Shown here piece by piece: positions 13,755 through 37,100 of a stretch of DNA of 64,000 nt. Location of the stretch: the IMG/VR virus record IMGVR_UViG_3300031784_000002. One strand, given 5' to 3'. Every line of letters begins with the position of its first letter. Within the stretch, counting starts at the first letter, position 1. Made by a program: the position numbers and the translations under genes. The notes below the pieces were generated by a model. It had not been told where the DNA came from, did not search any database, and saw only the letters and a list, made by a program, of their open reading frames with translations. This stretch comes from a virus. Its lineage: Duplodnaviria > Caudoviricetes.

Positions 13755-13755
13755 C

Positions 13756-14456: not shown

Positions 14457-14462
14457 GGCTAT

Positions 14463-18253: not shown

Positions 18254-18269
18254 CAAACACACAAACCCC

Positions 18270-18491
18270 ATGACTTTCGTTGACGCACTGATCGCATCTG
18301 GTTATGTCTTTGATGATGAGAATTATGATGGTTGTTATGTGAAACAAGACTCAGAGGGTTTCATTCACTGTTATCAGGAAAATGTGGATGATGACACTGA
18401 CACTCTCTGGAATTATGTCAAAATGACTGAGGATTTTGATGTGATTCATGAGGTTACTTTTGATCCCAATGTTGATACTATTGTTGAGTGA
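18270..18491 (+). CDS. hypothetical protein (acidic)
   Basis: first ORF after cassette 8. Confidence 0.7.
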   Translation: MTFVDALIASGYVFDDENYDGCYVKQDSEGFIHCYQENVDDDTDTLWNYVKMTEDFDVIHEVTFDPNVDTIVE

Positions 18492-18495
18492 ATCA

Positions 18496-18738
18496 ATGAA
18501 CTTCACTCATAAAGTTAGAAGTTGGTCTGTAACTCTTCCAAGAGAGTTAGAAGAAGAGAAGAAATGGTGGAGGAGAAAACCAGGAAAACCCAGAAAGATG
18601 GGTGATCCGTTACCACCACCAAAGGGTAAATTACCCAAGAAAAATAGTGACAAACGCATGTTGCAAGGTTACTATTTGTTGAAGAGAAGTGGTCAACCTG
18701 TTGATGCACTTGAATCTCTGATTGCACACCTTCTGTGA
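18496..18738 (+). CDS. basic hypothetical protein
   Basis: ATG 18496 preferred. Confidence 0.6.
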   Translation: MNFTHKVRSWSVTLPRELEEEKKWWRRKPGKPRKMGDPLPPPKGKLPKKNSDKRMLQGYYLLKRSGQPVDALESLIAHLL

Positions 18739-18746
18739 CACAAATC

Positions 18747-18929
18747 ATGAACGACAAAACTAAACTCATTTTCGCATTGATGCAGATTGATAACATCACC
18801 AACCTGATGAAAGAGAATGAGTATGAGCACTTTATGGTGTCACACTTAATTCCACTTCAGGTAGAGATTCAACGACAACTGAGCAACATAAACCATAGGG
18901 AGTGTGCCAGTCTGCAGACCGTCCACTAA
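18747..18929 (+). CDS. conserved cyanophage hypothetical protein
   Basis: KTKLIFALMQIDNITNL...ELQRQL-like. Confidence 0.65.
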   Translation: MNDKTKLIFALMQIDNITNLMKENEYEHFMVSHLIPLQVEIQRQLSNINHRECASLQTVH

Positions 18930-18976
18930 ACCTGCCGAAGGGGGCCGTGGCCTTGTATCTTAGCCATGTTGAGAGG
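18903..18976 (+). promoter_or_regulatory. dyad promoter cassette 9
   Basis: tgtgccag-N8-ccgtccac, 29 bp, TATCTT(18956)AGCCATGTTGAGAGG. Confidence 0.85.
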
Positions 18977-18983
18977 AACGCAA

Positions 18984-19226
18984 ATGACCCGCAAGTTTCA
19001 CACCATGAGCATCGAAGATCGTGAAATGTTTGCTTACAATTCTGCCTACCAAAAGCAACAGGCCGAGATGAAGCGTATTCTTGCACAACCCGAGCAACGC
19101 ATTAAGTATGCCTTTGAGTTTCTGAAAGGTTATGTTGCTGATGGTGATCAAATGATGGCAGCAAAGTGTTACAATGCCATCGCAAAGTACAGTGAAATGC
19201 TTGACACTTCTGAGGCCCACTTCTGA
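18984..19226 (+). CDS. hypothetical protein
   Basis: SD GAGAGG then ATG. Confidence 0.7.
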   Translation: MTRKFHTMSIEDREMFAYNSAYQKQQAEMKRILAQPEQRIKYAFEFLKGYVADGDQMMAAKCYNAIAKYSEMLDTSEAHF

Positions 19227-19390
19227 TGAAAACTAACTACATTCCCAAACAACATTGGGACGATTTATATGATCGTCTCCATGATGCTTATGTTGAGTGC
19301 ATGAAGTATCACAATCCAACTTATGAGCAGAAACTTGCTCAAATCTTGGATCATATGATTATCAACAAACCCCATCTGGCTATCAAATGA
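19226..19390 (+). CDS. small hypothetical protein
   Basis: 54-aa ORF read manually. Confidence 0.6.
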   Translation: MKTNYIPKQHWDDLYDRLHDAYVECMKYHNPTYEQKLAQILDHMIINKPHLAIK

Positions 19391-19563
19391 CTTACAAAGA
19401 ACTCCTGCAACAGCTTCAACAACTCGACGAAGATCAGCTCAATTCTGATGTTGTTATCTATGATGAAGGCATCAATGAGTATTATCAACTCAAAGTTGAG
19501 TTAGTGTTTGCAACTGAGCGATGTCAGGTACTTAATCTAGACCACCCTATCATTCGTTTCTGA
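19387..19563 (+). CDS. small hypothetical protein
   Basis: 58-aa ORF read manually. Confidence 0.65.
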   Translation: MTYKELLQQLQQLDEDQLNSDVVIYDEGINEYYQLKVELVFATERCQVLNLDHPIIRF

Positions 19564-19787
19564 TGATGTACGCAACCCTAGCTGAGTTTCATAGTTACGT
19601 CTTCAAGTTCTATGGCCGTGGTGGTGTGTATCCTATGGGTGCAACTTTGAAGGAGATTGCATCAGCAACTGAGATTCTGTTGGAGCAACTTACTGCAACA
19701 GATGGTGAGTTTCATGGTGATAGTATGGATCGTGAGCTTGTGCGGGACATTCTCATTTCAGAATACGGCTTAGAGTTTCCCGATTAA
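19563..19787 (+). CDS. hypothetical protein
   Basis: FYGRGGVYPMG...FHGDSMDRELVRD motif. Confidence 0.7.
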   Translation: MMYATLAEFHSYVFKFYGRGGVYPMGATLKEIASATEILLEQLTATDGEFHGDSMDRELVRDILISEYGLEFPD

Positions 19788-19790
19788 GCT

Positions 19791-19862
19791 TGTGACAGTT
19801 GGCGGGCCGTCCACCAAACCCGCCAAAGGGGCCCAGGGCCCTGTATCTTAGCCATGTTGAGA
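19791..19862 (+). promoter_or_regulatory. dyad promoter cassette 10
   Basis: tgtgacag-ttggcggg-ccgtccac, 29 bp, TATCTT(19844)AGCCATGTTGAGA. Confidence 0.85.
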
Positions 19863-19874
19863 CAAACAAACGCA

Positions 19875-20156
19875 ATGCGCTACATCACTATCACCTTCGG
19901 CCCTCGCAACGATGATCCTAGCCAGTTCTACAACGAGCGTACTTGGTGGGATCGTCAGAGTCAAGCTGAGAAGTGGGGGCTTCAGTCTCTCTCAATCGCA
20001 GGTTGTTTCGGTTATGTTGTGATTGAAGAGGGAGAGGATTCGTGGAAGATTGTGGATGAACTTGGTGCTCCTTCTAATGCTGTGAGTGTGTCTGCTGAGT
20101 ATAAAGGTGGAGTCACCTATTCTGTTCAACCTGCACCTAAACTTGTTCTGGTTTGA
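19875..20156 (+). CDS. hypothetical protein
   Basis: ATG after A/C-rich leader. Confidence 0.7.
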   Translation: MRYITITFGPRNDDPSQFYNERTWWDRQSQAEKWGLQSLSIAGCFGYVVIEEGEDSWKIVDELGAPSNAVSVSAEYKGGVTYSVQPAPKLVLV

Positions 20157-20292
20157 TGAACTACCGAATGAGAATTATGTTGTCTCCAATTATCTCCTGG
20201 CACCGACATGTTACAGGATACTGGGAGAAGAAACTCCCACACATTCCTGGAGCAAACTCTAAACAATTCTGGAACATTATCAACGGAAACTG

Positions 20293-20487
20293 ATGCACAC
20301 TGGTTACACTTTCAACCGAGTTGAGTTCACTCAAGATGAGGAAACTTGTCTCTTGCGTTTGATGTTCCAAGCACGAGATTGTGGGAACTGTAATGTTGAT
20401 GAAGAATGGCTGCCTTTGTGTAATGATCTGATCACAAAGTATTACAACAGCCACATCAAAGAAGCTCAACCTTTCCAAACTCTCTGA
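20293..20487 (+). CDS. hypothetical protein
   Basis: TGATG overlap with small ORF 20156-20293. Confidence 0.65.
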   Translation: MHTGYTFNRVEFTQDEETCLLRLMFQARDCGNCNVDEEWLPLCNDLITKYYNSHIKEAQPFQTL

Positions 20488-20494
20488 AATTATC

Positions 20495-20650
20495 ATGGTC
20501 GTTCACTTCTACGAAGGTCAATCCTACTCCTGGAATTATGCCAACCGCAGCTACGATGATAGTGGTTGCTGGGAAGATTATCTGTCTGGGGATGAGTATG
20601 AAGAGGCTCTAGATCGTAAGCGGTTTGAGCAATCAAATCGGGACTGGTAG
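20495..20650 (+). CDS. small hypothetical protein
   Basis: 51-aa ORF; its TAG is the first 3 nt of cassette 11. Confidence 0.6.
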   Translation: MVVHFYEGQSYSWNYANRSYDDSGCWEDYLSGDEYEEALDRKRFEQSNRDW

Positions 20651-20720
20651 GCCAATTTACTGGCTGCACACTAAATCCGCCGAGTGCAGCCAGAACCTGT
20701 ATCTTAGCCATGTTGAGAGG
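20648..20720 (+). promoter_or_regulatory. dyad promoter cassette 11
   Basis: taggccaa-N8-ctgcacac, 28 bp, TATCTT(20700)AGCCATGTTGAGAGG. Confidence 0.8.
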
Positions 20721-20727
20721 AATCGCA

Positions 20728-20937
20728 ATGACCGAGTTCCAAACTATCATCAACGATCTGACTCCCGAAGAGCGTAAAGCTCTAAAAGAAGCAACTGCTC
20801 CCGAATGGGTCAAAGCTATCCGTGAGACTGTCAATGATCCAAACTTTTGGAATGACATGGCTATTGCTTTTGCTCAAGGAGTTATCAACGGATTGAATGA
20901 TGCTCTGGATGACAACAACAATCGCCGTCACCGCTGA
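20728..20937 (+). CDS. hypothetical protein
   Basis: SD then ATG. Confidence 0.7.
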   Translation: MTEFQTIINDLTPEERKALKEATAPEWVKAIRETVNDPNFWNDMAIAFAQGVINGLNDALDDNNNRRHR

Positions 20938-21131
20938 TGACTGACGCACAAAAGCTTGAGGCACTGACTGACCTTCTCTCCAATGTCATTCACTCTCTGG
21001 AGATGACAAAGTATGAGATTGAAGATGTATCAGAGGCAGCAAATGTGGTTCGTGAGGCAGACCACTATCACCAACAAATGCTAGACATTCTTCATGGTGG
21101 CCCAGTTGAAGAACCTGCACAAGCCCCCTAG
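20937..21131 (+). CDS. hypothetical protein
   Basis: TGATG overlap. Confidence 0.65.
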   Translation: MTDAQKLEALTDLLSNVIHSLEMTKYEIEDVSEAANVVREADHYHQQMLDILHGGPVEEPAQAP

Positions 21132-21172
21132 ACTTCTCCAGCCAGATCCTGTATCTTAGCCATGTTGAGAGG
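21098..21172 (+). promoter_or_regulatory. dyad promoter cassette 12 (also has a -35-like TAGACT)
   Basis: tggcccag-ttgaagaa-cctgcaca, 30 bp, TATCTT(21152)AGCCATGTTGAGAGG. Confidence 0.8.
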
Positions 21173-21184
21173 AATCGCTCCCCA

Positions 21185-21328
21185 ATGTTTGACGAACTCT
21201 GGTCCGAGATTGCTGACATGCCTGGTGAAATCTTTGACACCACGATGACAGCAGAAGAACGAGCTGAGTTTCAGCGAGTTTGTGAAATGTCTGAAGAAGA
21301 GTATTACTACTACATGGAAGCTGCCTGA
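21185..21328 (+). CDS. small hypothetical protein (MFDELWSEIADMPGEIFD...)
   Basis: 47-aa ORF read manually. Confidence 0.7.
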   Translation: MFDELWSEIADMPGEIFDTTMTAEERAEFQRVCEMSEEEYYYYMEAA

Positions 21329-21329
21329 A

Positions 21330-21509
21330 ATGATGAACGATCTCCGTCAACGTTGCATGGATCTCGCCGATGAAATGTCGGCCGAGGTGAATGGAAACCT
21401 GTTCTATGTTCCCGATGAAGACATAGAGGATTGTCTGAAAGCTTTGACTGAGGATAACATCCAAGATGTCGCAGCTGAACTTGCAAACTTAGCTCACTGG
21501 TTTAACTGA
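21330..21509 (+). CDS. hypothetical protein
   Basis: ATG 21330 preferred. Confidence 0.65.
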   Translation: MMNDLRQRCMDLADEMSAEVNGNLFYVPDEDIEDCLKALTEDNIQDVAAELANLAHWFN

Positions 21510-21511
21510 TC

Positions 21512-21709
21512 ATGAACCTGAACACTCTTGAATTGCTCATTGCTGACTGCTTTGAGTACATTTATGACCGCGACGCCAAAGCTGGTGCGTATTGGTGTGA
21601 ACAACTCTTCACCAAGCAAGGTGACATCAAGCGTCACATGATCACTGAGATGACGCTACAACGGCTTGAGAACATCGCCGCTGACCTTTATGATCATCAG
21701 GAAGCCTGA
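21512..21709 (+). CDS. hypothetical protein
   Basis: ORF in operon. Confidence 0.65.
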   Translation: MNLNTLELLIADCFEYIYDRDAKAGAYWCEQLFTKQGDIKRHMITEMTLQRLENIAADLYDHQEA

Positions 21710-21710
21710 A

Positions 21711-21905
21711 ATGACGAATCAAGAATGGGTTGATGGCTTCAAGATTGTGCTGATCATCCTATTTGTGATTGGTGTGATCATTCTTTATGTTCACAACATC
21801 AAAGTTGAGCATGCTGATTGTATCGCACACGGCGGCCAATGGGTGCATGGACTCAGCTCAGATGGTGGGGCTCAATTCTACTGCATTGAGCCCCCTGGAA
21901 TCTAA
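21711..21905 (+). CDS. small membrane-anchored protein with CxxxGG-W...C
   Basis: TM helix then CIAHGGQW...FYC. Confidence 0.65.
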   Translation: MTNQEWVDGFKIVLIILFVIGVIILYVHNIKVEHADCIAHGGQWVHGLSSDGGAQFYCIEPPGI

Positions 21906-21927
21906 CACAAACACAACACACAAAACA

Positions 21928-22254
21928 ATGCAAACCACCAAAGCTTTCCCTCCCGCTGACGATCTGATTATGAAACTGCAAGAGATTGACTACATCAAAC
22001 AACTGAACAAATACATGGACATTGTTGAAACTATTGTGGTATGGATTGCCGCAATCGCTACTATCATCTTTGAGAAGTTTCAAACTCTAAAGATCACAAC
22101 TCCTCAAGCTATCTCCGATTACTTCTACTTTAGCTTTAACATGCGCTATGCTCCTGGTGATGAGATTATGGCTCTGAGTGTAGGTAATCTTTACCTCGGT
22201 TTGTATAGCGATTCGCTGAACTGGGGTGTGCTTGACGAGAACGGCTGCCTCTGA
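21928..22254 (+). CDS. hypothetical protein
   Basis: ATG after ACAC/AAAC-rich leader. Confidence 0.65.
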   Translation: MQTTKAFPPADDLIMKLQEIDYIKQLNKYMDIVETIVVWIAAIATIIFEKFQTLKITTPQAISDYFYFSFNMRYAPGDEIMALSVGNLYLGLYSDSLNWGVLDENGCL

Positions 22255-22427
22255 TTTGATCAAACATCTAATTTGATGCAATTCTGGCTGCATGGGATGA
22301 TCCAATCTACCTGTCAGCCAGTTTTAACGCTTTTTTCGGTTTCTGTCCTAGTGGTGGCCACGAGTCTCACCGCTTCCAACCTGAGACCAGCAGGGGGCTT
22401 CTGCGATCCTGACCAAACCTGGGGGCT

Positions 22428-22498
22428 TGTGACAATTGGCTCCCTGGGCCAGATTCTCGCCAAAGGGCCCCTCGGCCCCATATATTGGCCACATGAGG
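22428..22498 (+). promoter_or_regulatory. dyad promoter cassette 13
   Basis: tgtgacaa-N8-ctgggcca, 29 bp, TATATT(22481)GGCCACATGAGG. Confidence 0.75.
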
Positions 22499-22545
22499 GA
22501 GAGGGAACGACCCCGACCCCGACCAAACCATTCTCTGCTCAAACC

Positions 22546-22860
22546 ATGCGTAAGATCGAAACCCTGATGAACAAAGCTATCCAGCAAGAAATTGACTGGA
22601 AGCTGGACAACACCGAAGTCATCAGCTGCTCCAACGTTTCTGATGTCTACCTGCATGGCAATCTGATTGCTCGCATCGGTGAAACTTGGCTGGAACTGTT
22701 CGACGGTGGTTGGCAGACTGCTACCACGAAGTCCCGTCTGAATGCTATTCTCGCTGCACACGGCTGCCCTGGTGAGCGTGTCTTCCAACAGAAAGGCCAG
22801 TGGTTCATCACTATCAACGGAGCTAAGGTTCCTTTCTTCTCCGGTATGCGCCTGAACTGA
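22546..22860 (+). CDS. conserved phage hypothetical protein (MRKIE...LHGNLIA...TTKSRLNA)
   Basis: real start 22546; recognisable phage family pattern. Confidence 0.8.
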   Translation: MRKIETLMNKAIQQEIDWKLDNTEVISCSNVSDVYLHGNLIARIGETWLELFDGGWQTATTKSRLNAILAAHGCPGERVFQQKGQWFITINGAKVPFFSGMRLN

Positions 22861-23512
22861 TGGCTAGAACCAAGACGCTAACATTCAAGTCACCCGACAA
22901 AATGAAAACAATTGGCCTGATCTTTGTGATAGCGTTCTTGTTTTTCCCATCAGTTCGTTACACCACGGGGAGCATGATGCACTCTGCCGCTGATTTCATC
23001 CAATCCACAGCTAACTGATCATGATGACACTTACCGCTCTTAATTTTCAAGAACTCGATACACTTTTGGCTGTTCTTGAGTCTAGCGATTGGTGCTACTT
23101 GACTGAACTTACAGAGACAGACATTCCGGCTCTGTATGATAAACTTTCTGAAATGCGGGACGAAGTGTAATGAAACACACCAACACAGTTCGCATCATCG
23201 ACCGACTTGGCTTGTTCCCTGAGACTAGAGGAAAAGCCCGCTACATCTCGGTCAAAACTTATGCTCATGCAATGGAGATTGTGGATGAGCAGAACAAACT
23301 CGGCAACACAGCTACCCTGATTAACTGGTAACAAATTATGGGACATCATCGCACAATGGTTGAAACTGAACACTACGAGCTTCCGCTTGACTTTTATCTC
23401 AAGTGTGAGTTCATTGCTGCTCAATTAGAGGTCACAGTTGATTACCTTCTCGATGAGTTTTACGATGACGGGGAGCTCATTGTGCCAGACTTTGTGCAAG
23501 AATGAGCAGCGA

Positions 23513-23586
23513 TGTGACAGTCTTCGGACTGTCCACTAAATCCGCCAAACCCCAGCCAGTCTTGGTATCTTAGCCATGTTGAGAGG
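23513..23586 (+). promoter_or_regulatory. dyad promoter cassette 14
   Basis: tgtgacag-tcttcgga-ctgtccac, 29 bp, TATCTT(23566)AGCCATGTTGAGAGG. Confidence 0.88.
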
Positions 23587-23593
23587 TTCACGA

Positions 23594-23764
23594 ATGACCA
23601 ACGCAACCAACTTCATTCCCTGCACTGACATCGAAACCCGTCAAGCTATGTGGGTTGGTATGAAATACGATGAGCAACTTGGTATCTTCAATGCTGTTCA
23701 AGTTGCATCGGCTTTCGCAGATCGTTATGCGGAAGATTACAAGCCTGTGACCTTCTGTGACTGA
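23594..23764 (+). CDS. hypothetical protein
   Basis: SD then ATG. Confidence 0.7.
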   Translation: MTNATNFIPCTDIETRQAMWVGMKYDEQLGIFNAVQVASAFADRYAEDYKPVTFCD

Positions 23765-23789
23765 ATCCAACTCTACATCTTCCAAACAA

Positions 23790-23921
23790 ATGTTCACAAT
23801 CACCTATCAAGTTCCTTACAACAACTGTGAGTGGAGGACTCAAAGCTTCAAGACTCTTGAAGAAGCACAACGGATGATAGATTTCTACCGTTCTTGTGGT
23901 TCACCTTGCAAACTTGTTTGA
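23790..23921 (+). CDS. small hypothetical protein
   Basis: 43-aa ORF read manually. Confidence 0.55.
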   Translation: MFTITYQVPYNNCEWRTQSFKTLEEAQRMIDFYRSCGSPCKLV

Positions 23922-23932
23922 GTAATTTAATC

Positions 23933-24079
23933 ATGCGAATCGCTCTTCTGATTGCTACTCTTGCTCTTGGACTGAAGACTGGTCTTGCTGCTCATGCTAC
24001 GGTGAATGCCTATCAAGAAGCACAAGCCGAACGGCTGTGCCAGATTGATCCAAGCTACTGCGGACTGAAGCAAAAGTAG
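23933..24079 (+). CDS. small exported/membrane protein
   Basis: hydrophobic N-terminus; CQIDPSYC; its TAG begins cassette 15. Confidence 0.65.
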   Translation: MRIALLIATLALGLKTGLAAHATVNAYQEAQAERLCQIDPSYCGLKQK

Positions 24080-24141
24080 GACAGTCTGATGGCTGTCCAC
24101 CAAATCCGCCGAACCGACCCGTTTGGCCCTATATTGGCCAC
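24077..24141 (+). promoter_or_regulatory. dyad promoter cassette 15
   Basis: taggacag-N8-ctgtccac, 29 bp, TATATT(24130)GGCCAC. Confidence 0.85.
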
Positions 24142-24465
24142 ATGAAGAACAACACCACTCAAATGTCACTTTTCTCCCAAGGCTGGAAAGCTGAAGAATA
24201 CTTCGGTAGCGAGCTGACTGCTCATCACATGAACACTCGTTCGGTGTATCGTTTCAAGGAGAATGCCAATGTGAGCATCACTCACTCCGGAAAGTATGCT
24301 GAAGATGGAACTGTTGATGTGTTCACAGTTTCTGTTCGTGAGGAGATCAATCCTCGCCACTCGGTTACTCAAACTGTTGAGACCTTTGCTAACTTTTTGG
24401 ACGCATACTACTGCGGTGTGCAGTGTGTCAACAATCTGAATCTTGATCTCATCACTATTAACTGA
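24142..24465 (+). CDS. hypothetical protein
   Basis: ATG at predicted +1 (or internal ATG 24163). Confidence 0.7.
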   Translation: MKNNTTQMSLFSQGWKAEEYFGSELTAHHMNTRSVYRFKENANVSITHSGKYAEDGTVDVFTVSVREEINPRHSVTQTVETFANFLDAYYCGVQCVNNLNLDLITIN

Positions 24466-24487
24466 ATCAATTTACTGAGCAACTATC

Positions 24488-24937
24488 ATGAACATTTTTG
24501 ACCTGCAACGTGATCTCCAGAAGGAAAAGCTTTCTCTGGAAGAATTGCTGACTGAAGTGAAGGCTTCACTGGTGACGATCAACGAAAACCTAGAAGCTGT
24601 TGATCGAGTTGCCAAGATGTTTGGTGGAAAAGCCACATCGCCCGAACACAATCAAGAGTTCATGGCTAAACTACGTTCGCTGCTCTCTCAGAAGTTCAGC
24701 CAGAGGGAAGTTGATGAACTCATTGAAATTATTGAGCAAGATGATGTGCGGAGGCTGAACGGCAAACTGAATAAGAACCCTGCAAGCTACACTCACCAAG
24801 TTCTCGCATTGTGCTATCAGATGCGAATTGTGAATGGTAACATTCAAGATCACATGAAGGATGCGATTAAGCGTCTGCGTGAAGCTGGCCACATTTCAGT
24901 GGAGCAATCTAAGTGGTTTGTTTCACAAGGTTTCTAA
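24488..24937 (+). CDS. hypothetical coiled-coil protein
   Basis: 149-aa ORF. Confidence 0.7.
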   Translation: MNIFDLQRDLQKEKLSLEELLTEVKASLVTINENLEAVDRVAKMFGGKATSPEHNQEFMAKLRSLLSQKFSQREVDELIEIIEQDDVRRLNGKLNKNPASYTHQVLALCYQMRIVNGNIQDHMKDAIKRLREAGHISVEQSKWFVSQGF

Positions 24938-24940
24938 TCA

Positions 24941-25013
24941 TGTGACAGCCATGCGGCTGTCCACCAAATCCGCCGAGACCCGCCATCTGATGTATTCTAG
25001 CCATGTTGAGAGG
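24941..25013 (+). promoter_or_regulatory. dyad promoter cassette 16
   Basis: tgtgacag-N8-ctgtccac, 28 bp, TATTCT(24993)AGCCATGTTGAGAGG. Confidence 0.85.
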
Positions 25014-25026
25014 AATCGGAACCCAA

Positions 25027-25203
25027 ATGAAAGTCTACGCTGTGATCGGTGGTTGGGATTATGAAGGCGAAGACTTTCAATCCCTGCGCCTGTTTGATTG
25101 TTTCTCTGCTGCTGATGCGTACCTGAAGCAACTTGATGAAGAATACGATTATGCTAAGATGGACACCCGCGAGGTGTGCATGGAATCTGCAATCGCTGCT
25201 TGA
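25027..25203 (+). CDS. hypothetical protein (MKVYAVIGGWDYEGE)
   Basis: first ORF after cassette 16. Confidence 0.7.
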   Translation: MKVYAVIGGWDYEGEDFQSLRLFDCFSAADAYLKQLDEEYDYAKMDTREVCMESAIAA

Positions 25204-25205
25204 TC

Positions 25206-25367
25206 ATGAAAAACTATCGCGTTCGTGTTGAAACTAACGATGGCTGTGTCACGATTTGGTATGAGAAATCAAACGCAAAACGTGCTTGTGATCTTATCAA
25301 CAATCGGGTCTACAATCAGCTCTGTGGGTTGAACATCAAGGAAGTTGAAGTAACTCCTTCCGTCTGA
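25206..25367 (+). CDS. hypothetical protein
   Basis: ATG 25206. Confidence 0.65.
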   Translation: MKNYRVRVETNDGCVTIWYEKSNAKRACDLINNRVYNQLCGLNIKEVEVTPSV

Positions 25368-25400
25368 ACTTTTCTTCTTAATTAACACAAACACAAACTC

Positions 25401-25586
25401 ATGACTAACACTTTCGACCGCGCACAACTCGTTGAAGATTACATTCAACAACTGATTGAGGGAATGGACTATAAAACAATGGAGTGCTTTGTTTATGATA
25501 CTATGAAAGAGAATCTTTCTAGTTATACTGATGAAGAATTGATTACAGAGGTTCAAGACTACTATCCTGAGCTGATTGAAGGCTGA
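25401..25586 (+). CDS. conserved cyanophage hypothetical protein
   Basis: DRAQLVEDYIQQLIEGMDYK...ELI.EV..YYPELI. Confidence 0.7.
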   Translation: MTNTFDRAQLVEDYIQQLIEGMDYKTMECFVYDTMKENLSSYTDEELITEVQDYYPELIEG

Positions 25587-25657
25587 TTCGCCATTTGCGA
25601 ATAGAGAATGAGATGCGCTCTAAAGACACTCACATTCCCAAACACTTTGCTACTCTC

Positions 25658-25783
25658 ATGATTCAAACTCGTAAAGACTTCTTCATTCAAGTTCTCGATC
25701 AGTTTGCTACTAATGGTAACGAACTTCTGCAGATTCTGGATGACATCGAATCTGGCGAATGTGAATGCTTTCTCGAAGATTGA
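25658..25783 (+). CDS. small hypothetical protein
   Basis: ATG 25658 after SD-less leader. Confidence 0.55.
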   Translation: MIQTRKDFFIQVLDQFATNGNELLQILDDIESGECECFLED

Positions 25784-25829
25784 GCTCTAATTCTTTACAC
25801 TTTTCCCAAACACTTTTCTTCTTTTTCTC

Positions 25830-25988
25830 ATGACTCTTCAAACTGCAATCTCCATGCTTCAGAGTGCTCGCAACGGCGCCGAAATGCTTGAGGTTCTTGA
25901 TAGTCTCGCAGGTGGCTATGAGTACATCGAGTCCCCCATGATTGCTCAGGTGCTCGGAGTGCCCACGCTTGAACCAATGGAGTTCTGA
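25830..25988 (+). CDS. small hypothetical protein
   Basis: 52-aa ORF read manually. Confidence 0.6.
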   Translation: MTLQTAISMLQSARNGAEMLEVLDSLAGGYEYIESPMIAQVLGVPTLEPMEF

Positions 25989-25999
25989 TGATAGAATAG

Positions 26000-26024
26000 A
26001 GGGGGCTGAATAAGTCCCCTTTTG
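26000..26024 (+). terminator. intrinsic terminator
   Basis: agggggct-gaata-agtcccct followed by TTT. Confidence 0.65.
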
Positions 26025-26388
26025 TGTCAACTTAACCCCGTAAATTGACTTCAATTCGTCACAACTTACGACATGAAGAAACGCTACCTGATTGCTGCAT
26101 CAATTCTGCCATTGACTCTGCTTGTGTTCGCAACAGTTCGGGACAGTTGTGCTAATCCCAGCTATGCCCAATACTTTACAGAATCATGCCAGACAAAATG
26201 ACACAATCAAATTGGGCTGAGAATCTAACACCTGAAGAGCAACAACAAACTTACAACGAGATCGTCAATTATCTCAAAGAAGAAGTGCTTTCACAGGTGT
26301 CAGAAAAGTATGACAAACCCATTGCCTATAAGTACAGAAACGTATAAAATAGTAACGTACCTTCAACCACATTCAAGGACACACACTC

Positions 26389-26574
26389 ATGCAAACCATC
26401 AACAACAAAGTTACACGCTATCGAGTTACGTTAGACTTTACAGTTGATACATCTAACTGTGTAAGTCCTAAGGAATGGAACTGGGCTCAACTTCTCGAAC
26501 TTGGTAACAGCGAATCAGTCAATGAGGTTTATGTAGAGAATCTCGGAGAATATAACATTCGTAGGAGCAAGTGA
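26389..26574 (+). CDS. hypothetical protein
   Basis: 61-aa ORF. Confidence 0.65.
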   Translation: MQTINNKVTRYRVTLDFTVDTSNCVSPKEWNWAQLLELGNSESVNEVYVENLGEYNIRRSK

Positions 26575-26784
26575 AGATGGGAGAAGATCAAGAGTTTTTT
26601 TACAACGAAATGATCGAACAAAGTTACTACGAAGAGGGAACGATTGACTGGGATGATTGCTCTCAAGGTGCGACTGAAGTAGAGTCTTATGATCCATAAG
26701 CTTTCAACGGAGACAACAGCAAAGGAGGAGTGGAGTTACATTGCTTTAGTCCTCAAAGAGTTGTTATCAATGAGTTATGAAAGC

Positions 26785-27113
26785 TTTTCCACAAGGCTGT
26801 TGAAAAAGCTGTGGAAAAATGGCTTTAAAATAAATGGCTAAAAAAACATGGCTTGTGTGAAAGCTTTCTCGTTTATGTTCTCTCTGTGGCCCCTCTGATG
26901 GCTTATAAAAAAGCCTCTGAGCCTTATGCTTATGTCCTCTAGAAAGCCTCTGAGACCTTGTGATCTAAGCGTGCAGGCTATCACACGACCGCATAAATGT
27001 CAAGAGGCACCTCACATAAGTCTCCGGGACCACACAATTTGAGCAACTTACCCCCCTCACAGTTCTTATAGTTTTCCACAGCACTTGTGGAAAAAGTCTA
27101 TAAGTTTTCCACA
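26785..27113. repeat. cluster of five TTTTCCACA (cyanobacterial DnaA-box consensus) 9-mers
   Basis: + copies at 26785, 27072, 27105; - copies at 26810, 27086; one-mismatch copy at 26798 (-). Confidence 0.8.
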
Positions 27114-27150
27114 GCCTTATGAGCACTCTAAGTCCCCCACATCTCGGAGC

Positions 27151-27180
27151 TTGACATAAGCCCTCTGAAAGCCTTATAAT
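27151..27180 (+). promoter_or_regulatory. perfect-consensus sigma70 promoter with no downstream ORF
   Basis: TTGACA-18-TATAAT. Confidence 0.75.
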
Positions 27181-27298
27181 AACTCTGTGGGAGTGCATAA
27201 AGGGGCTGAGTGCTTAAGCCTAAGCTAAAGGACTTATGTAAAGCTCAAGCCACAGAGACTTATGAGCCTACCATAGATTGCTGAGATCCAGAGACACA

Positions 27299-27371
27299 AT
27301 GGACACTTATCTAACTGGCCACAGAATGTGCCAGAGGGAGCCAGATCCCGTATATTAGCCATGTTGAGAGG
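27299..27371 (+). promoter_or_regulatory. dyad promoter cassette 17
   Basis: atggacac-N8-ctggccac, 28 bp, TATATT(27351)AGCCATGTTGAGAGG. Confidence 0.8.
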
Positions 27372-27378
27372 AACACAC

Positions 27379-27624
27379 ATGAGCACCACCCAAACCACTC
27401 AAGCTACCTACAACGGTTACGCTAACTACGAGACCTGGAATGCTGCTCTGTGGATTGGTAATGATTACGGTCTGTATAAGCTTGCTCTTCAGTGTCGTGA
27501 TTATGCCGAGTTCCAAGAGCTTATGATTGACGACCTCGGTATGAGCTGCACTCCTGATGGTGTACTCTGGAACGACTCTGAGCTGAACCACGATGAGCTT
27601 GATGAGGTGATCAAAGAACTCTGA
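27379..27624 (+). CDS. conserved phage hypothetical protein (YNGYANYETWNAALWIGND)
   Basis: SD then ATG; recognisable phage family pattern. Confidence 0.8.
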   Translation: MSTTQTTQATYNGYANYETWNAALWIGNDYGLYKLALQCRDYAEFQELMIDDLGMSCTPDGVLWNDSELNHDELDEVIKEL

Positions 27625-27655
27625 GCTTCATTAACACTTTTCTCACTTAAGATTC

Positions 27656-27844
27656 ATGATGATCACTAACACTGAGACCCGTCCATTCTTCGTTCAACAA
27701 GCAAAGTCTGGCAGGTGGAATGTATGGGTCTTTCAGAGAGAAACTGAGGACGGTTACAAGTATGCCGTCAAGCAAACATTCAAAGATCCTGATGTTGCTC
27801 ATGACTGGGGCTTGAACTACATCAACCACGTCATTCGTTACTGA
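27656..27844 (+). CDS. hypothetical protein
   Basis: 62-aa ORF. Confidence 0.65.
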   Translation: MMITNTETRPFFVQQAKSGRWNVWVFQRETEDGYKYAVKQTFKDPDVAHDWGLNYINHVIRY

Positions 27845-27881
27845 TTCGTTTACTCTAACTCACCCACACACACTAACACTC

Positions 27882-28124
27882 ATGACTCTGAACATCGCCA
27901 CCGCAACTAAGCTCGACCTGTTGATTGCTGATATCCAAGGAGAGATTAAGTACACTGTGCTCCCCACCCGTAAGGCTCGGAAATCTGAACTGCTCATGAG
28001 CCGCACGAATGGCCCTCGGACTAACACTAACCGTCGTGGTCAAGCATACAGCGGACATGCCACACATGCACAGAATGCTGTGATTCAGGGCAATGATGCT
28101 GCATACTTCAAGACCAGCGGCTGA
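27882..28124 (+). CDS. basic hypothetical protein
   Basis: last ORF of the early region. Confidence 0.7.
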   Translation: MTLNIATATKLDLLIADIQGEIKYTVLPTRKARKSELLMSRTNGPRTNTNRRGQAYSGHATHAQNAVIQGNDAAYFKTSG

Positions 28125-28362
28125 TGGGTTGAGTGTATGTCCCCTCTGAAGGCTTATGAGCACTTGGAGGGGACACGAATACGACTAGGAGGAGCAGCAG
28201 TCTTCGTGTACTTATGACAGTTTGAGCAGTTGTTTGTGCGCCCGTTGTTGTTAGCGCGGGGCGCGGTGGCCCCCGTATATAAAAACGCTAAACTACCCTA
28301 ATCTATAACGACCCCAAAAAGCGCTCGAAAAGCCTTCCGCATTCAAAAAATTTTTTGGTGGC

Positions 28363-28370
28363 TATAAATA
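28363..28370 (+). promoter_or_regulatory. T4-type late promoter
   Basis: TATAAATA. Confidence 0.75.
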
Positions 28371-28394
28371 CTCAAAAGACGTTTTAAAATATTC

Positions 28395-29519
28395 ATGGAA
28401 GTCAAAACACTATCTTTTTATCCTGGAGTACCTTTCAATGATGCGATTGAAAGTTTCTTGGATGCATATGAGCTCGGAGAAGATATCGAGTGTTATCAAT
28501 TAATTTTTTGTCCTTATGGGCGTCATACATCCTTTGGTGACTTATATAATATTGAATTTAAGAGTAGAGTTGTAATTTTAAATGTCATTGATTTTATCAT
28601 TGATGGATTGGATAATATTGCAACTGAAGAAATTAAACAATTCTGCGAGGATCACCCTGAACAAAATTTTATTATATTCAATTACAACATAGGTCTCGGA
28701 GACAAACTGAATGTTCCGAACTTACATTGGGATACAATTTTTTCAGGAACTTTAACAGAGAGATTAACTCACTGTGAAAAGAAAAATCTAACCAATAAAT
28801 GGTTATCATTGAATGCAGATACAAAGTTACACAGAGTCATGGCGGTGTGTTACTTGTTATCAAAAGACTATCATGAGAATGGTTATATTACTTTCAACAT
28901 GAACGCTGGTCCACTTGCAAGTCATGATAGTTATCGTAATTTTACCAAGATCTCATCGTATCAATTAAAAAGTAGTTTTGCGAAGGGATACGTCAAGTTT
29001 AAGTCAAAAGATTTTAGACGATTGAAAATAAAAAATTTCAGTTCAATTGAAGATAGAGTATCAACTAATTACAATAATAATTTAATGCCAATCTACGAAA
29101 GAATTGGTGTAGAGATTATTACTGGAACAATGTTCTTTGAGAATGTTCCAAGTTTAAGTGAGAAAGAAGTTCAATCTGTATATGCCAAAAATTTTCCAAT
29201 TTATATTAATGGAATTGGAATGGCAAGAGAAATTAAAAAGCTTTTTGATATTGATATCTTTGAAGATATTGTAGATCATAGTTATGATGAAATTGAAGAT
29301 CATTTTGAGAGACTTGCAGCAGCAATTGATAGGAATCAACATTTGTTAGATGGCTCTACCAATATCCATGAATTGTGGTATGATAATCAAAAGAGATTTG
29401 AGGATAACTGTGAAAAGATGGATCAAATTATTTTTGATTCAAAGTATCAACAGAGCATAAACTATAAAAAGATAGAAAATGCTTTGTCTAAGTTTGGAGT
29501 CTCTTTTTCAAAAAAATAA
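28395..29519 (+). CDS. hypothetical protein, probable glycan-related (glycosyltransferase-like) family
   Basis: EIITGTMF...LSEK...FPIYI...DIFEDIVDHSYDEIED...R C-terminal pattern; AT-rich. Confidence 0.5.
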   Translation: MEVKTLSFYPGVPFNDAIESFLDAYELGEDIECYQLIFCPYGRHTSFGDLYNIEFKSRVVILNVIDFIIDGLDNIATEEIKQFCEDHPEQNFIIFNYNIGLGDKLNVPNLHWDTIFSGTLTERLTHCEKKNLTNKWLSLNADTKLHRVMAVCYLLSKDYHENGYITFNMNAGPLASHDSYRNFTKISSYQLKSSFAKGYVKFKSKDFRRLKIKNFSSIEDRVSTNYNNNLMPIYERIGVEIITGTMFFENVPSLSEKEVQSVYAKNFPIYINGIGMAREIKKLFDIDIFEDIVDHSYDEIEDHFERLAAAIDRNQHLLDGSTNIHELWYDNQKRFEDNCEKMDQIIFDSKYQQSINYKKIENALSKFGVSFSKK

Positions 29520-34130: not shown

Positions 34131-37100
34131 ATGTCAGAAATTAAAAGAGTAAAAATCAGCTCGATCATTGGAACCCAAATTCCAGAATTCTTATCCATAG
34201 AATCTCCGCTTTTTAGTGAGTTTCTTGCACAGTATTACAATTCATTAGAATATCAGTCAGGACCGATTGATATCGTTTCTAATATTGTAAACTATAAAAA
34301 TTCTAAAGCATTTAATAATGTAGAGTTAACTGAAAAAACTACTTTAACTTCTGATGTTTTATCTTTTGATGATGTTATAAATGTTGAGTCTACTAAAGGT
34401 TGGCCAGATTCTTATGGACTGTTGAAAATTAATGATGAAATTATCACTTACTTATCTAAAACTGAAACCTCCTTTCAAAATTGCATTAGGGGATTTAGTG
34501 GGATTGAGAACCTAGAATCTCTGGATAACCCAGAATTTTTGGTTTTCTCATCAACTAAGGCAGCCGAACATACGGATAATAGTGTAGTTCAAAATCTAAG
34601 TAATCTATTTTTGATCAAATTTTTTGAAAACTTTAAGTATGAGTTTTTACCTGGTTTTGAATCCAGAGATTTCTACAAAGATATTTCCATTGAAAATGTA
34701 TCTTACAAGATTAAAGACTTATACAAATCAAAAGGAACAGATTTATCATATAAACTTCTCTTCAAAATTTTATATGGCGCAGATATTGAAATTATAAAAC
34801 CACAAGATTATACCCTTTCACCATCTTCAAACTCTTATTTTATAACAAAAAATATACTAGTAGAAAAAATTTCTGGCGGTAATCCAATAGATATCAAGGG
34901 TAACTTTTTATTCCAAAACATAACTGGAATTGGTACTGTAAGTGCTTCAATTTTCAACGTTGAGTATCGACCAGTGGGAGAAAAAGAATTTTATGAAATT
35001 TCTTTGGATAGTACATCATTTAGTGGTAATTTTCAAGTTTCGGGTAAAACTAGAATACTGGAAGATGTACAAGTAAACAATAGTACTATTTTAGTTGATT
35101 CAACTGTAGGATTTGCTAATTCTGGAACTATCCTGGTAAAACCAAAAAATTCCGATTTCATTAAAGTAAGTTATACAGGAAAGAACATTAATCAATTTAC
35201 TGGAGTTACAAACGTAACTCAATTTTTAGATTTTGGACTCGATTTAATCGAAGAAAAATTTGCTTTTAGTTATGTTGGAGTAGGAAATACTTCTAAGGTA
35301 GAGTTCCGAGTAGTTAATGTAATTGATAATATTGATTTTTCAAAAACTTCAAATTTAAGAGTTGGAGATAACATATCTTTATCTGGATTTGGTAAAGATT
35401 TGTATGATACTTATGAGTTTAATAGTTGGATCTATAATATTCCAACTAATCATAACATAAGAAGTATTTCACAAATTGATGCCACAAAATACAGAATTAA
35501 TTTATTTGATAAAATTTATTTTTATCAAAATGAAATTATCTCACTTTCAGATAATCTAGGTAGTTCAATAGAAGCTAAGATTATATCCGTTGAATATTCA
35601 ACTTCAGATTCAATTAAAAAATATAGTAATAGGATACTGATTCAAGTTATAAATCCAGGAACATACAATGTTTTAACTTCGAAAGTTGTAGGGAAGAAAA
35701 TTTATAAGTCAAATCATTATAGCAATTATTTTCCAAATCTGGAAAATATTCCTGCAGGCATTCAAAATACATATATTGATTCTGAAGAAAAATATTTCTA
35801 CATTACTTCGTCCGGATTACCAAATTATACAATTTTCTCTACAGATAATAAAAAGACTATATCAACCATAGTAGGAACTTCCACTACGGATACATTTAAT
35901 GTTTTTAATCATAACCTGTTTAGTGGAGAATTAGTTTATTATTTGCCGGAAACATCTTCTGGAATATTAACAGGACTTTATTATGTCACAAAGATTGATG
36001 ATAATAGATTAAAATTATCTTATAGTAAGTCTGATATTTTTTCAAGAAAATATATCCAATCCACTTCTACGATTACTAATGATTCTCTATATAAGTTTGG
36101 ATATCAGAATAAAACTCTAAAACACCAGAAACTCTTAAAAAAATTCTATGTTGATAGTAGTAAACCGAGAGAGTCTTTTGATGATTTAAATGAAAGAACT
36201 ACTTTTAACAGAGAAGTGGGGTTATTAGTAAATGGAGTTGAGCTATTATCCCCCAACTTATTTGATGAAAACATTTATTATGGCAATATTACTTCAATTA
36301 ATGTCACTAACTCTGGACAAGATTATGATGTTATAGACGTTCCTCCATTAGAAGTTAAAGATGAGACTGGAACTGGGTTAAAAGCGCACCTAAACCTCTC
36401 AGGCAGTGTTAGAGAAATTAAAATATTAAACGCTGGATATGGATACCAAGAAAAACCAAAAATTACAATAACTGGTGGAAATGGTATCGGATGTATACTA
36501 GACTCCAACTTTGTTAAAACTAGAGTTTCTGCAGGATTTAAGGCTGATTTAAATGTAAGTACAGCAAATAACACTATACAATTTTTAAATACTATCCCAT
36601 TTGAAGATGGTGAAGAAGTTGTTTATGATTCTAACAAAAATAGTAACGTACCCGGAATTGTAAATAACTCAACCTATTTTGTAGGCATTCTTACAGATAA
36701 TAAGATTAAACTCTTTAATACTAAAACAAATGCTCTTCAAAAAGTAAATGAAATTGATATCGTTGGAGTTTCTTCCGGATTTCACTTCATAACAACATTA
36801 AAAAATAAAAATACTTTTACTAAAATTTATGTTAAAGAGTCTGGACAAGGATACTCAAATAGAAAAGTAAGAGTTCCATCAATACTTTCTGGAGATAATA
36901 GAAGTTCTGGAATTAATACTTTTGATTCGTATATCTTTGCAAAAAGCCACGGATTTAAAGATTTCGATCTTGTAAAGTATTCATATCAAGGTTCTGCAAT
37001 AAGTGGATTATCGACTTCAGTACATTATTATGTCAAAATTATTGATGTCAATAAATTTAGATTATATGAAGCTGGAATTGGAACTACTTTAAATAATGAA

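What the first reader, a model, noticed from the sequence alone, without database searches (positions are those of the whole stretch)
26700..27150. Cluster of host-type DnaA boxes in the largest non-coding gap
Seen in sequence: five perfect TTTTCCACA 9-mers within 330 bp (26785+, 26810-, 27072+, 27086-, 27105+), plus TTTTCAACA at 26798(-). Two form inverted pairs (spacers 16 and 5 bp). TATA(A)GTTTTCCACAGC occurs twice, and CTTATG/CATAAG and AAAGCCTCTGAG repeats are interspersed. A uniform-composition estimate gives about 0.5 such 9-mers per 64 kb on both strands. Established: TTTTCCACA is the DnaA-box consensus of Synechococcus oriC, and T4-like phages are not known to need host DnaA. Inference: this is (a) an oriC-mimic replication origin, (b) a datA-like DnaA sink that blocks host initiation, or (c) a membrane/injection signal.
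Basis: partly seen in the sequence, partly recalled or inferred. Interest (0 to 1): 0.75.

Follow-up and report, generated by a model that had tools for sequence, protein, structure and literature searches.

The report
Host DnaA boxes in cyanophage control region
A gene-poor stretch of this freshwater T4-like cyanophage carries a conserved, precisely spaced cluster of binding sites for DnaA, the host protein that starts DNA copying, beside a perfect early promoter. The same layout occurs in lab phages S-PM2 and Syn9, so it is a testable candidate for how these abundant viruses tie replication or early transcription to the host.

Summary
The window's only five perfect TTTTCCACA 9-mers lie within 330 bp, plus one 1-mismatch copy.

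They are not chance. At least 17 IMG/VR relatives, with 11 distinct sequences aligned, keep box clusters at the same site. Two boxes are invariant while flanking DNA is only 47-62% identical. Each long relative contig has one such cluster.

The boxes belong to a module found widely in T4-like cyanophages (Kyanoviridae):
- boxes,
- an A-rich motif,
- a conserved ~45-bp element,
- a strong sigma-70 promoter.

Six of 11 cultured phages tested have boxes at this position, including S-PM2 and Syn9.

Phage boxes share the flanking-base preference and bimodal spacing of chromosomal cyanobacterial DnaA boxes. No DnaA-type DNA-binding domain was found in three relative contigs or in S-SCSM2R. Host DnaA is therefore the likely ligand, though binding is untested.

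Function is unresolved. The module lacks the DnaA-trio/unwinding layout of oriC, so "oriC mimic" in the strict sense fails. Cluster I resembles the E. coli DARS1 core. Several relatives keep the module without boxes.

My best reading is an origin-type early-promoter module modulated by host DnaA.

I found no paper describing this. The same scan noted the phenomenon in at least four other cyanophage genomes.

The parts
26689..26841 (+). Possible small gene (50 aa). Its ATG overlaps the stop of the preceding 42-aa ORF, and its 3' third contains box cluster I.
   Evidence: The frame is open and the peptide is conserved (..EEWSYILLVLKELLSMS..LWKKLWK) in 8-9 of 11 relatives. Differences by codon position are 0.21/0.17/0.30. 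L002 and L018 lack the ORF body but keep the tandem boxes.
26785..26818 (.). Box cluster I: TTTTCCACA (26785+), 4 bp, TGTTGAAAA (26798-, 1 mismatch), AGC, TGTGGAAAA (26810-). One box faces two tandem boxes.
   Evidence: Box 26810-26818 is 100% identical in 11 distinct relatives, and the 1-mismatch box is 91% identical. S-PM2 has the same layout with three perfect boxes. The geometry is close to the E. coli DARS1 core.
26819..26850 (.). A-rich tract with ATGGCT repeats (consensus AAATGGCTAAAAAAACAT), directly 3' of the tandem boxes.
   Evidence: It is 75% A+T and 80% identical across relatives. A similar motif follows the tandem boxes in about 20 of 56 distinct phage tandem pairs, and in S-PM2 and S-SCSM2R. 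It is not a melting extreme in this window.
26910..26954 (+). Two direct copies of AAAGCCTCTGAG (26910-26921 and 26943-26954). Relatives have one to three copies of AAAGCCTCTGAGACCTTGTG.
   Evidence: (family D11) and the alignment.
26957..27005 (.). The most conserved element of the module: CCTTGTGATCTAAGCG..GCTATCACA..TGTCAA. On the minus strand it reads TTGACA, 17 nt, TAGCCT, which could be a weak leftward promoter.
   Evidence: It is 89% identical across relatives. It is recognisable in S-SCSM2R, S-PM2, Syn9 and S-RIM2. The -10 hexamer matches only 3 of 6, below the scan tool's threshold. The promoter reading is inference.
27072..27113 (.). Box cluster II: TTTTCCACA (27072+), 5 bp, TGTGGAAAA (27086-), 10 bp, TTTTCCACA (27105+).
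   Evidence: Identity across 11 relatives is 83%, 100% and 89% for the three boxes, against 61-62% for the DNA on either side of the box-motif block, 27006-27071 and 27133-27150.
27114..27132 (.). Conserved motif (G)CCTTATGAGCACTCTAAG between cluster II and the promoter. Its function is unknown.
   Evidence: It is 94% identical across relatives.
27151..27180 (+). Perfect host-type sigma-70 promoter, TTGACA-18 nt-TATAAT. Its -35 hexamer lies 37 bp downstream of the last box.
   Evidence: It matches 12 of 12 consensus positions. It is conserved in most relatives, S-SCSM2R and Syn9. RNA-library contigs of two samples start at 27196 and 27218, and none covers 27115-27195. This is a weak hint only.
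27187..27378 (+). Conserved leader of about 190 nt with no conserved ORF, running up to the DUF7249 gene.
   Evidence: It is 74-80% identical across relatives. The consensus fold is weak: -8.2 kcal/mol with one compensatory pair. It is 53% A+T, so it is not an unwinding element.
27379..27624 (+). First gene after the promoter: an 81-aa DUF7249 protein.
   Evidence: Pfam PF23907 E 2.7e-17 and phrog_871 E 1.5e-23. The first downstream gene differs in Syn9 and S-RIM2.

Best explanation
This is a conserved cis-acting control module of T4-like cyanophages that recruits the host replication initiator DnaA. Two phased clusters of consensus DnaA boxes flank a conserved element and sit just upstream of a perfect host sigma-70 early promoter. 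I propose that host DnaA oligomers assemble on the boxes soon after injection and change how the module fires. They could do this by bending or opening the adjacent DNA, or by activating or blocking early transcription through it. In T4-type phages early origin firing is itself a transcription event at promoter-type origins. The module would therefore work as an origin-type early promoter (closest to T4 oriE and to plasmid origins that combine DnaA boxes with iterons), with firing coupled to the state of the host initiator.

Shown: the boxes, their conservation, their host-like flanks and spacing, the promoter, and the wide distribution of the module.

Inferred: DnaA binding, and any effect on replication or transcription.
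For: - Clustering: all 5 perfect boxes lie within 330 bp.
- One cluster per genome in long relatives: 6 of 14, 6 of 8, 6 of 7 and 7 of 9 of all copies lie in it.
- Synteny and footprint: at least 17 IMG/VR relatives have clusters at the same site. Two boxes are invariant while flanks are 47-62% identical.
- Turnover: box number (2-8) and placement vary while the 9-mer stays perfect.
- Breadth: 47 of the first 118 IMG/VR contigs with tandem boxes are T4-like cyanophages, with the cluster between the Kyano_Gp96 gene and the DUF7249/phrog_1574/gp6 genes.
- Cultured phages: S-PM2, Syn9, S-RIM2, S-SZBM1, S-CAM1 and ACG-2014d have boxes there.
- Host identity: TTTTCCACA is the cyanobacterial consensus and binds DnaA domain IV in vitro (PMC4674748). 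A 66% G+C Cyanobium-like genome has 8 such boxes (4 perfect) directly upstream of dnaN.
- Shared details: position -1 is G/T and +1 is G/A in both phage and chromosomal boxes. Spacings are bimodal about one helical turn apart, as in chromosomal pairs.
- No DnaA C-terminal domain was found in three relative contigs (one complete) or in S-SCSM2R.
- The 12/12 promoter is conserved.
- T4 oriE is likewise repeats plus an early host-type promoter (PMC3016281).
Against: - No binding or replication data exist.
- S-SCSM2R (the closest named phage match), S-RSM4, S-SSM7 and both Prochlorococcus phages tested have no box cluster. S-SCSM2R still keeps the A-rich motif, the element and the promoter. DnaA therefore cannot be essential to the module.
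- There are no DnaA-trios. The A-rich tract lies 3' of the TGTGGAAAA reading, opposite to chromosomal unwinding modules, and is only at the 14th-27th percentile of melting ease in the window.
- The DNA downstream of the rightward promoter is 53% A+T, so the T4 oriF/oriG layout is not met for that promoter.
- Cumulative GC skew of a complete relative is monotonic.
- The leftward promoter that would put the A-rich tract downstream is weak by consensus.
- T4 itself needs no DnaA (PMC3016281 never mentions it).
Confidence: 0.4

Rival explanations
1. The module is purely transcriptional. Host DnaA acts as an activator or repressor of the perfect early promoter, and perhaps of a leftward one. Expression of the downstream early genes would then follow the host's DnaA level or growth state, with no role in replication.
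For: - The boxes always lie upstream of a strong sigma-70 promoter. In this clade cluster II ends 37 bp before the -35 hexamer.
- Number and presence of boxes vary among relatives, as expected for regulatory tuning.
- Two clusters about 290 bp apart could loop.
- DnaA is an established transcription factor (textbook knowledge).
- RNA-library contigs stop before the promoter and restart after it.
Against: - The distance from boxes to promoter varies from about 40 to about 170 bp or more between phages, and the downstream gene differs.
- This reading gives no reason for the conserved A-rich motif directly beside the tandem boxes.
- No expression data exist.
Confidence: 0.25
2. The module is a host-takeover element acting on DnaA itself. 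As phage DNA multiplies, the boxes either titrate DnaA (datA-like sink) or, through the facing-box geometry, strip its nucleotide (DARS-like). Either way host chromosome initiation would be altered.
For: - Cluster I (one box, 4 bp, a facing box, 3 bp, a tandem box) and the 5-bp facing pair of cluster II nearly match the E. coli DARS1 core. That core, read directly from MG1655, is TTATCCACT-5 bp-TGTGGATAA-3 bp-TGTGTATTA (PMC6868365).
- S-PM2 has the same triple with perfect boxes.
- High phage copy number would multiply the sites (inference).
Against: - Only 5 of 56 distinct tandem pairs have the facing box at 4-5 bp.
- S. elongatus DnaA unwinds its origin with ADP as well as ATP (PMC8287927), so nucleotide-state control may matter little in cyanobacteria.
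- No DARS or datA is known in cyanobacteria (my knowledge).
- Titration would come late in infection.
- It does not explain the fixed link to a promoter.
Confidence: 0.13
3. The repeats are bound by a phage-encoded or other host protein, and the identity to the DnaA box is coincidental.
For: Facing 9-mers with short spacers also suit dimeric repressors. Many small phage ORFs of unknown function lie nearby.
Against: - The match to the 9-bp host consensus is exact, and the flanking preferences are the same as in chromosomal boxes.
- The tandem 21-mer TTTTCCACAGCTTTTTCCACA also occurs in more than 120 bacterial genomes of many phyla.
- No DnaA-like DNA-binding domain was found in the phage genomes searched.
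Confidence: 0.15

Closest known systems
Bacteriophage T4 oriE (Kreuzer and Brister 2010, PMC3016281)
   Same: Both are gene-poor cassettes in a T4-type genome with evenly spaced short repeats and a host-type early promoter that needs no viral factor. In both, the repeats are conserved at the syntenic site in relatives. From memory, T4 oriE also lies near the baseplate genes; here gp6 starts about 5 kb downstream.
   Different: The T4 iterons are 12-nt direct repeats of unknown ligand, not DnaA boxes, and T4 replication is not known to use DnaA. There is no sequence similarity, and origin activity has not been shown here.
Plasmid and phage origins that combine host DnaA boxes with an A+T-rich tract and repeats (P1 oriR, pSC101, F oriS, RK2 oriV; from my own knowledge, see also review PMC4980987)
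   Same: The order of parts is the same: DnaA boxes, an A-rich tract, repeated or conserved element(s), and a promoter reading into a downstream gene. Host DnaA acts there as a helper, not the sole initiator.
   Different: No Rep-type initiator gene was identified. The first downstream gene is a small DUF7249 protein and differs between phages. The A-rich tract is not unusually easy to melt.
E. coli DARS1/DARS2 core (PMC6868365; MG1655 sequence read)
   Same: Both have three boxes: box I faces box II across 4-5 bp, and box III follows box II in tandem after 3 bp.
   Different: This geometry is present in only a minority of the phage loci. The IHF/Fis regulatory part was not examined. No equivalent is known in cyanobacteria.
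Cyanobacterial oriC / basal unwinding system (PMC8287927)
   Same: The 9-mer is the same, boxes occur in tandem with 2-3 bp spacers, and the flanking-base preference is the same.
   Different: There is no GC spacer plus DnaA-trio array, the A-rich tract is on the opposite side of the boxes, and the cluster is not next to dnaN or dnaA. The host-type genome G218 shows the full TAGTAGTAG-GGGG-TGTGGAAAATGTGGATAA arrangement; the phage does not.
Phage lambda pR region with DnaA boxes (my own knowledge)
   Same: Host DnaA boxes lie near an early promoter whose transcription activates the origin.
   Different: Lambda has its own initiator O with iterons. Positions and sequences are unrelated.

Membership tests
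Cyanobacterial DnaA box (DnaA domain IV binding site) | 9-mer TTTTCCACA | tested here: met
   There are five perfect copies and one 1-mismatch copy. The consensus and in vitro binding are documented in PMC4674748.
Cyanobacterial DnaA box (DnaA domain IV binding site) | Flanking-base preference like chromosomal boxes | tested here: met
   Position -1 is G/T in 82% of phage and 85% of host boxes. Position +1 is G/A in 98% of phage and 92% of host boxes. Boxes of pattern-selected tandem pairs were excluded. Phage loci are related to each other, so the counts are not independent.
Cyanobacterial DnaA box (DnaA domain IV binding site) | Arrays with helically phased spacing | tested here: met
   In the phage loci, tandem spacers are 2-3 and 12-13 bp, and facing spacers are 4-5 and 13-16 bp. 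In cyanobacterial chromosomes, tandem spacers are 0, 2-3 and 11-12 bp, and facing spacers are 3-4 and 12-17 bp.
Cyanobacterial DnaA box (DnaA domain IV binding site) | Bound by DnaA | not testable with these tools
   This needs EMSA, footprinting or ChIP.
Bacterial oriC basal unwinding system (BUS) | Tandem DnaA boxes with 0-3 bp between them | tested here: met
   TGTTGAAAA-AGC-TGTGGAAAA in the window, with both boxes perfect in most relatives.
Bacterial oriC basal unwinding system (BUS) | Short GC-rich spacer and at least 3 DnaA-trios (NAN) 5' of the TGTGGAAAA reading | tested here: not met
   In the window that position holds the facing box, with at most 2 NAN triplets in phase (rule from PMC8287927). 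Some relatives have TAT-GAT-AAC there, but this is not conserved. The host-type oriC shows the full motif.
Bacterial oriC basal unwinding system (BUS) | A+T-rich unwinding region on the trio side that is unusually easy to melt | tested here: not met
   The A-rich tract is on the other side of the boxes. It ranks at the 14th-27th percentile of the window for 30-40 bp stability.
T4 oriF/oriG-type origin | Promoter with a sigma-70-type -10 hexamer | tested here: met
   TTGACA-18-TATAAT at 27151-27180.
T4 oriF/oriG-type origin | A+T-rich unwinding element downstream of that promoter | tested here: not met
   27187-27300 is 54% A+T, below the window mean of 63%. The feature would be met only for a hypothetical leftward promoter in the conserved element, which is weak by consensus.
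T4 oriE-type origin | Cluster of evenly spaced short repeats plus an early-mode promoter, conserved at the syntenic site | tested here: met
   description in PMC3016281. Origin activity itself was not testable.
DARS core | Boxes I and II facing across 5 bp; boxes II and III in tandem (3 bp in DARS1) | tested here: inconclusive
   Cluster I has spacers of 4 and 3 bp with a 1-mismatch middle box. Cluster II has the 5-bp facing pair, but its third box is reversed. Only 5 of 56 phage tandem pairs show the triple.
DARS core | Promotes ADP release from DnaA | not testable with these tools
   This needs a biochemical assay.
datA-type DnaA sink | Cluster of DnaA boxes with an IHF site that promotes DnaA-ATP hydrolysis | tested here: inconclusive
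   The box cluster is present. I did not search for an IHF/HU site, and the activity is not testable here.

The most novel reading that the evidence does not exclude
The facing-plus-tandem box triple is a phage-borne DARS-like (or datA-like) DNA element. It would be a non-coding 'DNA effector' that, multiplied by phage replication, strips nucleotide from the host initiator DnaA or sequesters it, and so reprogrammes host chromosome initiation during infection.
Probability: 0.1. Interest if true: 0.9.

Novelty: new variant of a known kind. Interest (0 to 1): 0.68.

Why it matters
T4-like cyanophages kill a large share of marine and freshwater picocyanobacteria. As far as I know, no replication origin has been mapped in any of them, and T4-type phages are regarded as independent of the host initiator.

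A conserved, single-locus array of host DnaA boxes beside an early promoter gives a concrete, mutable site to test in the culturable phages S-PM2, Syn9, S-RIM2 and S-CAM1. The tests are whether these viruses use, sense or disable host DnaA.

- If it is an origin, it would be, as far as I know, the first T4-type phage known to employ DnaA.
- If it is a sensor, it would link phage early development to host growth state.
- If it is a sink or DARS mimic, it would be a new kind of host takeover by non-coding DNA.

Five of 11 cultured relatives tested lack the boxes, which offers natural controls.

Tried and rejected
- Rfam search of 26000-28000 at E up to 1 found nothing.
- The consensus fold of the leader 27187-27300 in 9 sequences is weak: -8.2 kcal/mol, positive covariation term, one compensatory pair. 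There is no support for a structured RNA.
- GC skew of the window and of a complete 249-kb relative is monotonic and gene-strand driven, with no origin-like turn.
- The A-rich tract is not a melting extreme in this A+T-rich window. An earlier scan note called this DNA the easiest to melt in another phage; that does not hold here.
- No terminator-like site lies in 25500-28500.
- I considered a leftward sigma-70 promoter inside the conserved element (TTGACA-17-TAGCCT) and one back-to-back with the rightward promoter (TAGAGT with a poor -35). Both fall below the consensus threshold and could not be confirmed.
- RNA-library contigs cover 26717-27114 and 27196-27445 but carry no strand or end information, and depth is only 3-11. 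Uncovered parts are no finding.
- The S-PM2d spontaneous deletion (5,799-15,339) does not include the S-PM2 boxes at 19,231, so it says nothing on essentiality (PMC4503421).
- The S-PM2 transcription paper PMC10976474 has no start-site or non-coding RNA data.
- My first sample of small 'cyanobacterial phylum' genomes lacked psbA and proved to be non-photosynthetic relatives. I replaced it with class-level genomes.
- The exact tandem 21-mer occurs in many bacterial phyla, so it gives no hint of a specific donor of the phage boxes.
- Literature searches for DnaA boxes in cyanophages found nothing relevant. Doron et al. 2016 on Syn9 transcription is not in the library.

Full report
**What is there**

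The window comes from a large T4-like cyanophage (Kyanoviridae).
- It encodes Kyano_Gp96, a gp6 baseplate wedge protein and giant structural proteins.
- Its closest named phage match in the searches is Synechococcus phage S-SCSM2R, 244 kb.
- Near-identical DNA occurs in freshwater and lake metagenomes of 13 studies.

TTTTCCACA occurs five times in 64 kb, all between 26785 and 27113. A 1-mismatch copy lies at 26798.
- The count alone is not remarkable: shuffles give 1.59 copies.
- The clustering is: the probability is about 3.5e-9 for five random sites.
- The gap is the largest ORF-free stretch on the coding strand.
- Cluster I lies in the 3' end of a plausibly real 50-aa ORF.

**Anatomy**

From left to right the region contains:
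- Cluster I, 26785-26818: one box facing two tandem boxes, with spacers of 4 and 3 bp.
- An A-rich tract with ATGGCT repeats, 26819-26850.
- Two copies of AAAGCCTCTGAG.
- A ~45-bp element, CCTTGTGATCTAAGCG..GCTATCACA..TGTCAA, at 26957-27005.
- Cluster II, 27072-27113: a facing pair 5 bp apart, then a third box after 10 bp.
- An invariant CTTATGAGCACTCTAAG motif.
- A 12/12 sigma-70 promoter at 27151-27180.
- A leader of about 190 nt.
- A DUF7249 gene starting at 27379.

**Conservation**

I used the upstream 61-aa ORF to fetch 44 IMG/VR loci.
- At least 17 carry clusters of perfect boxes at the same site.
- Most have the two-cluster layout, with a perfect promoter about 45 bp after the last box.

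In an alignment of 11 distinct sequences:
- boxes 26810 and 27086 are invariant;
- the other boxes are 74-91% identical;
- the DNA outside the conserved blocks is 47-62% identical;
- the element is 89% identical and the -10 hexamer 97%.

L002 and L018 lack the small ORF but keep the tandem boxes, so the constraint acts on the DNA itself.

In long contigs the cluster holds 6 of 14, 6 of 8, 6 of 7 and 7 of 9 of all copies. Each genome therefore has one cluster.

**Breadth**

I scanned IMG/VR for two boxes 2-3 bp apart.
- 47 of them are T4-like cyanophages.
- They carry 2-8 boxes in the same neighbourhood, between the Gp96 gene and the DUF7249, phrog_1574 and gp6 genes.

Among 11 cultured Kyanoviridae:
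- Six have boxes there: S-PM2 (19231+, 19244-, 19256-), Syn9 (52565+, 52589-, plus a 1-mismatch copy), S-RIM2, S-SZBM1, S-CAM1 and ACG-2014d.
- Five do not: S-RSM4, S-SCSM2R, S-SSM7 and the Prochlorococcus phages P-RSM6 and P-RSM1.

S-PM2, Syn9 and S-RIM2 show the same order of parts, though the promoter is not evident in S-PM2:
- boxes;
- an A-rich motif;
- the TTGT..CTTAGC.CG..CTA.CGA..TGTCAA element;
- a strong promoter;
- a leader beginning AAC.CTG..GGGTT.ATAAGGG.

S-SCSM2R keeps everything except the boxes. The boxes are therefore a frequent but dispensable part of a wider module.

**Are they DnaA boxes?**

- TTTTCCACA is the cyanobacterial consensus, with in vitro binding shown (PMC4674748). 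S. elongatus oriC has 11 boxes with this consensus (PMC3480399).
- I checked genomes of the host type directly. A 2.4-Mb, 66% G+C member of class Cyanobacteriia has eight boxes, four of them perfect, directly upstream of dnaN. They include TAGTAGTAG-GGGG-TGTGGAAAATGTGGATAA, a textbook unwinding module.
- Phage and chromosomal boxes share flanking preferences: G/T before the box and G/A after it.
- Both show bimodal spacing about one helical turn apart.
- The tandem 21-mer occurs in more than 120 bacterial genomes of many phyla.
- No DnaA C-terminal domain was found in three relative contigs or in S-SCSM2R.

I put the chance that host DnaA binds these sites at about 0.75-0.8.

**What does it do?**

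*Strict oriC mimicry fails.* There is no DnaA-trio array. The A-rich tract is on the wrong side of the boxes and is not a melting extreme. There is no GC-skew signal.

*The T4 oriF/oriG layout is not met for the rightward promoter.* That layout needs a promoter with a downstream A+T-rich element, but the leader is 53% A+T (PMC3016281). It would fit a leftward promoter in the conserved element, but that promoter is weak by consensus.

*The design does resemble T4 oriE and plasmid origins.* T4 oriE combines repeats with an early host-type promoter. Plasmid origins combine DnaA boxes, an A-rich tract and repeats.

*Cluster I nearly matches the E. coli DARS1 core,* which I read from MG1655 (PMC6868365). 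Only 5 of 56 phage tandem pairs share that geometry. S. elongatus DnaA also works with ADP, which weakens models based on nucleotide switching.

*RNA evidence is thin.* RNA-library contigs cover 26717-27114 and restart at 27196 and 27218, leaving the promoter itself uncovered. They give no strand information.

I commit to an origin-type early-promoter module modulated by host DnaA, at confidence 0.4. The rivals are:
- pure transcriptional control, 0.25;
- a DnaA sink or DARS mimic, 0.13;
- a ligand other than DnaA, 0.15.

**Novelty**

Full-text searches found no paper on DnaA boxes in cyanophages. The T4 replication review never mentions DnaA.

This scan's earlier notes report the same phenomenon in at least four other cyanophage genomes. 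The module is therefore a recurrent finding of the scan and not unique to this window.

DnaA boxes in phage and plasmid replication regions are a known kind of element. Their conserved presence in a T4-type lineage is a new variant.

Noticed in passing
window 26689-26841 (+): A small ORF (50 aa) starts inside the stop region of the preceding 42-aa ORF. Its peptide (..EEWSYILLVLKELLSMS..) is conserved in most relatives. Its variable C-terminus LWKKLWK.. is encoded by the tandem DnaA boxes themselves.
   Followed up: partly
window 26957-27005; S-PM2 about 19310-19350; Syn9 about 52680-52720: A bipartite element, TTGT..(15 nt containing CTTAGC.CG)..TA.C.., usually followed by TGTCAA. It is conserved from this freshwater phage to S-PM2, Syn9 and S-RIM2, and also in S-SCSM2R, which has no boxes. 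Ligand and function are unknown. It may be a leftward promoter.
   Followed up: partly
L298 5970-6014 and L299 2820-2842 (Cyanobium-like genomes G218 and G200); also L304 and L305 about 1470-1590: Outside oriC, two Cyanobium-like genomes share extra facing DnaA-box pairs. One has a 5-bp spacer (the partner box carries one mismatch) and lies about 2.7 kb from oriC, upstream of a methyltransferase-like gene. These could be chromosomal DnaA-control sites in picocyanobacteria, DARS-like or regulatory.
   Followed up: no
Syn9 record DQ149023.2, 52477-52797: The annotated small genes gp86 and gp87 of Syn9 overlap the boxes, the A-rich tract, the conserved element and the promoter. They may be spurious gene calls over a non-coding control region.
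   Followed up: no
window 18000-28000 versus 32000-60000: The block of small early genes around the module has 43-47% G+C, against 29-35% in the structural gene block downstream. The GC skew is slightly negative only in 22-28 kb.
   Followed up: no
window 34131-47237 and 48872-56356 (+): Two giant ORFs (4368 and 2494 aa) follow the gp6 baseplate gene. They are presumably structural or fibre proteins. I did not examine them.
   Followed up: no
L010 about 330-1000: In one relative the space between the small ORFs and the module holds an inserted reverse-strand gene of about 650 bp. Only a single box is left, so the site tolerates insertions.
   Followed up: no
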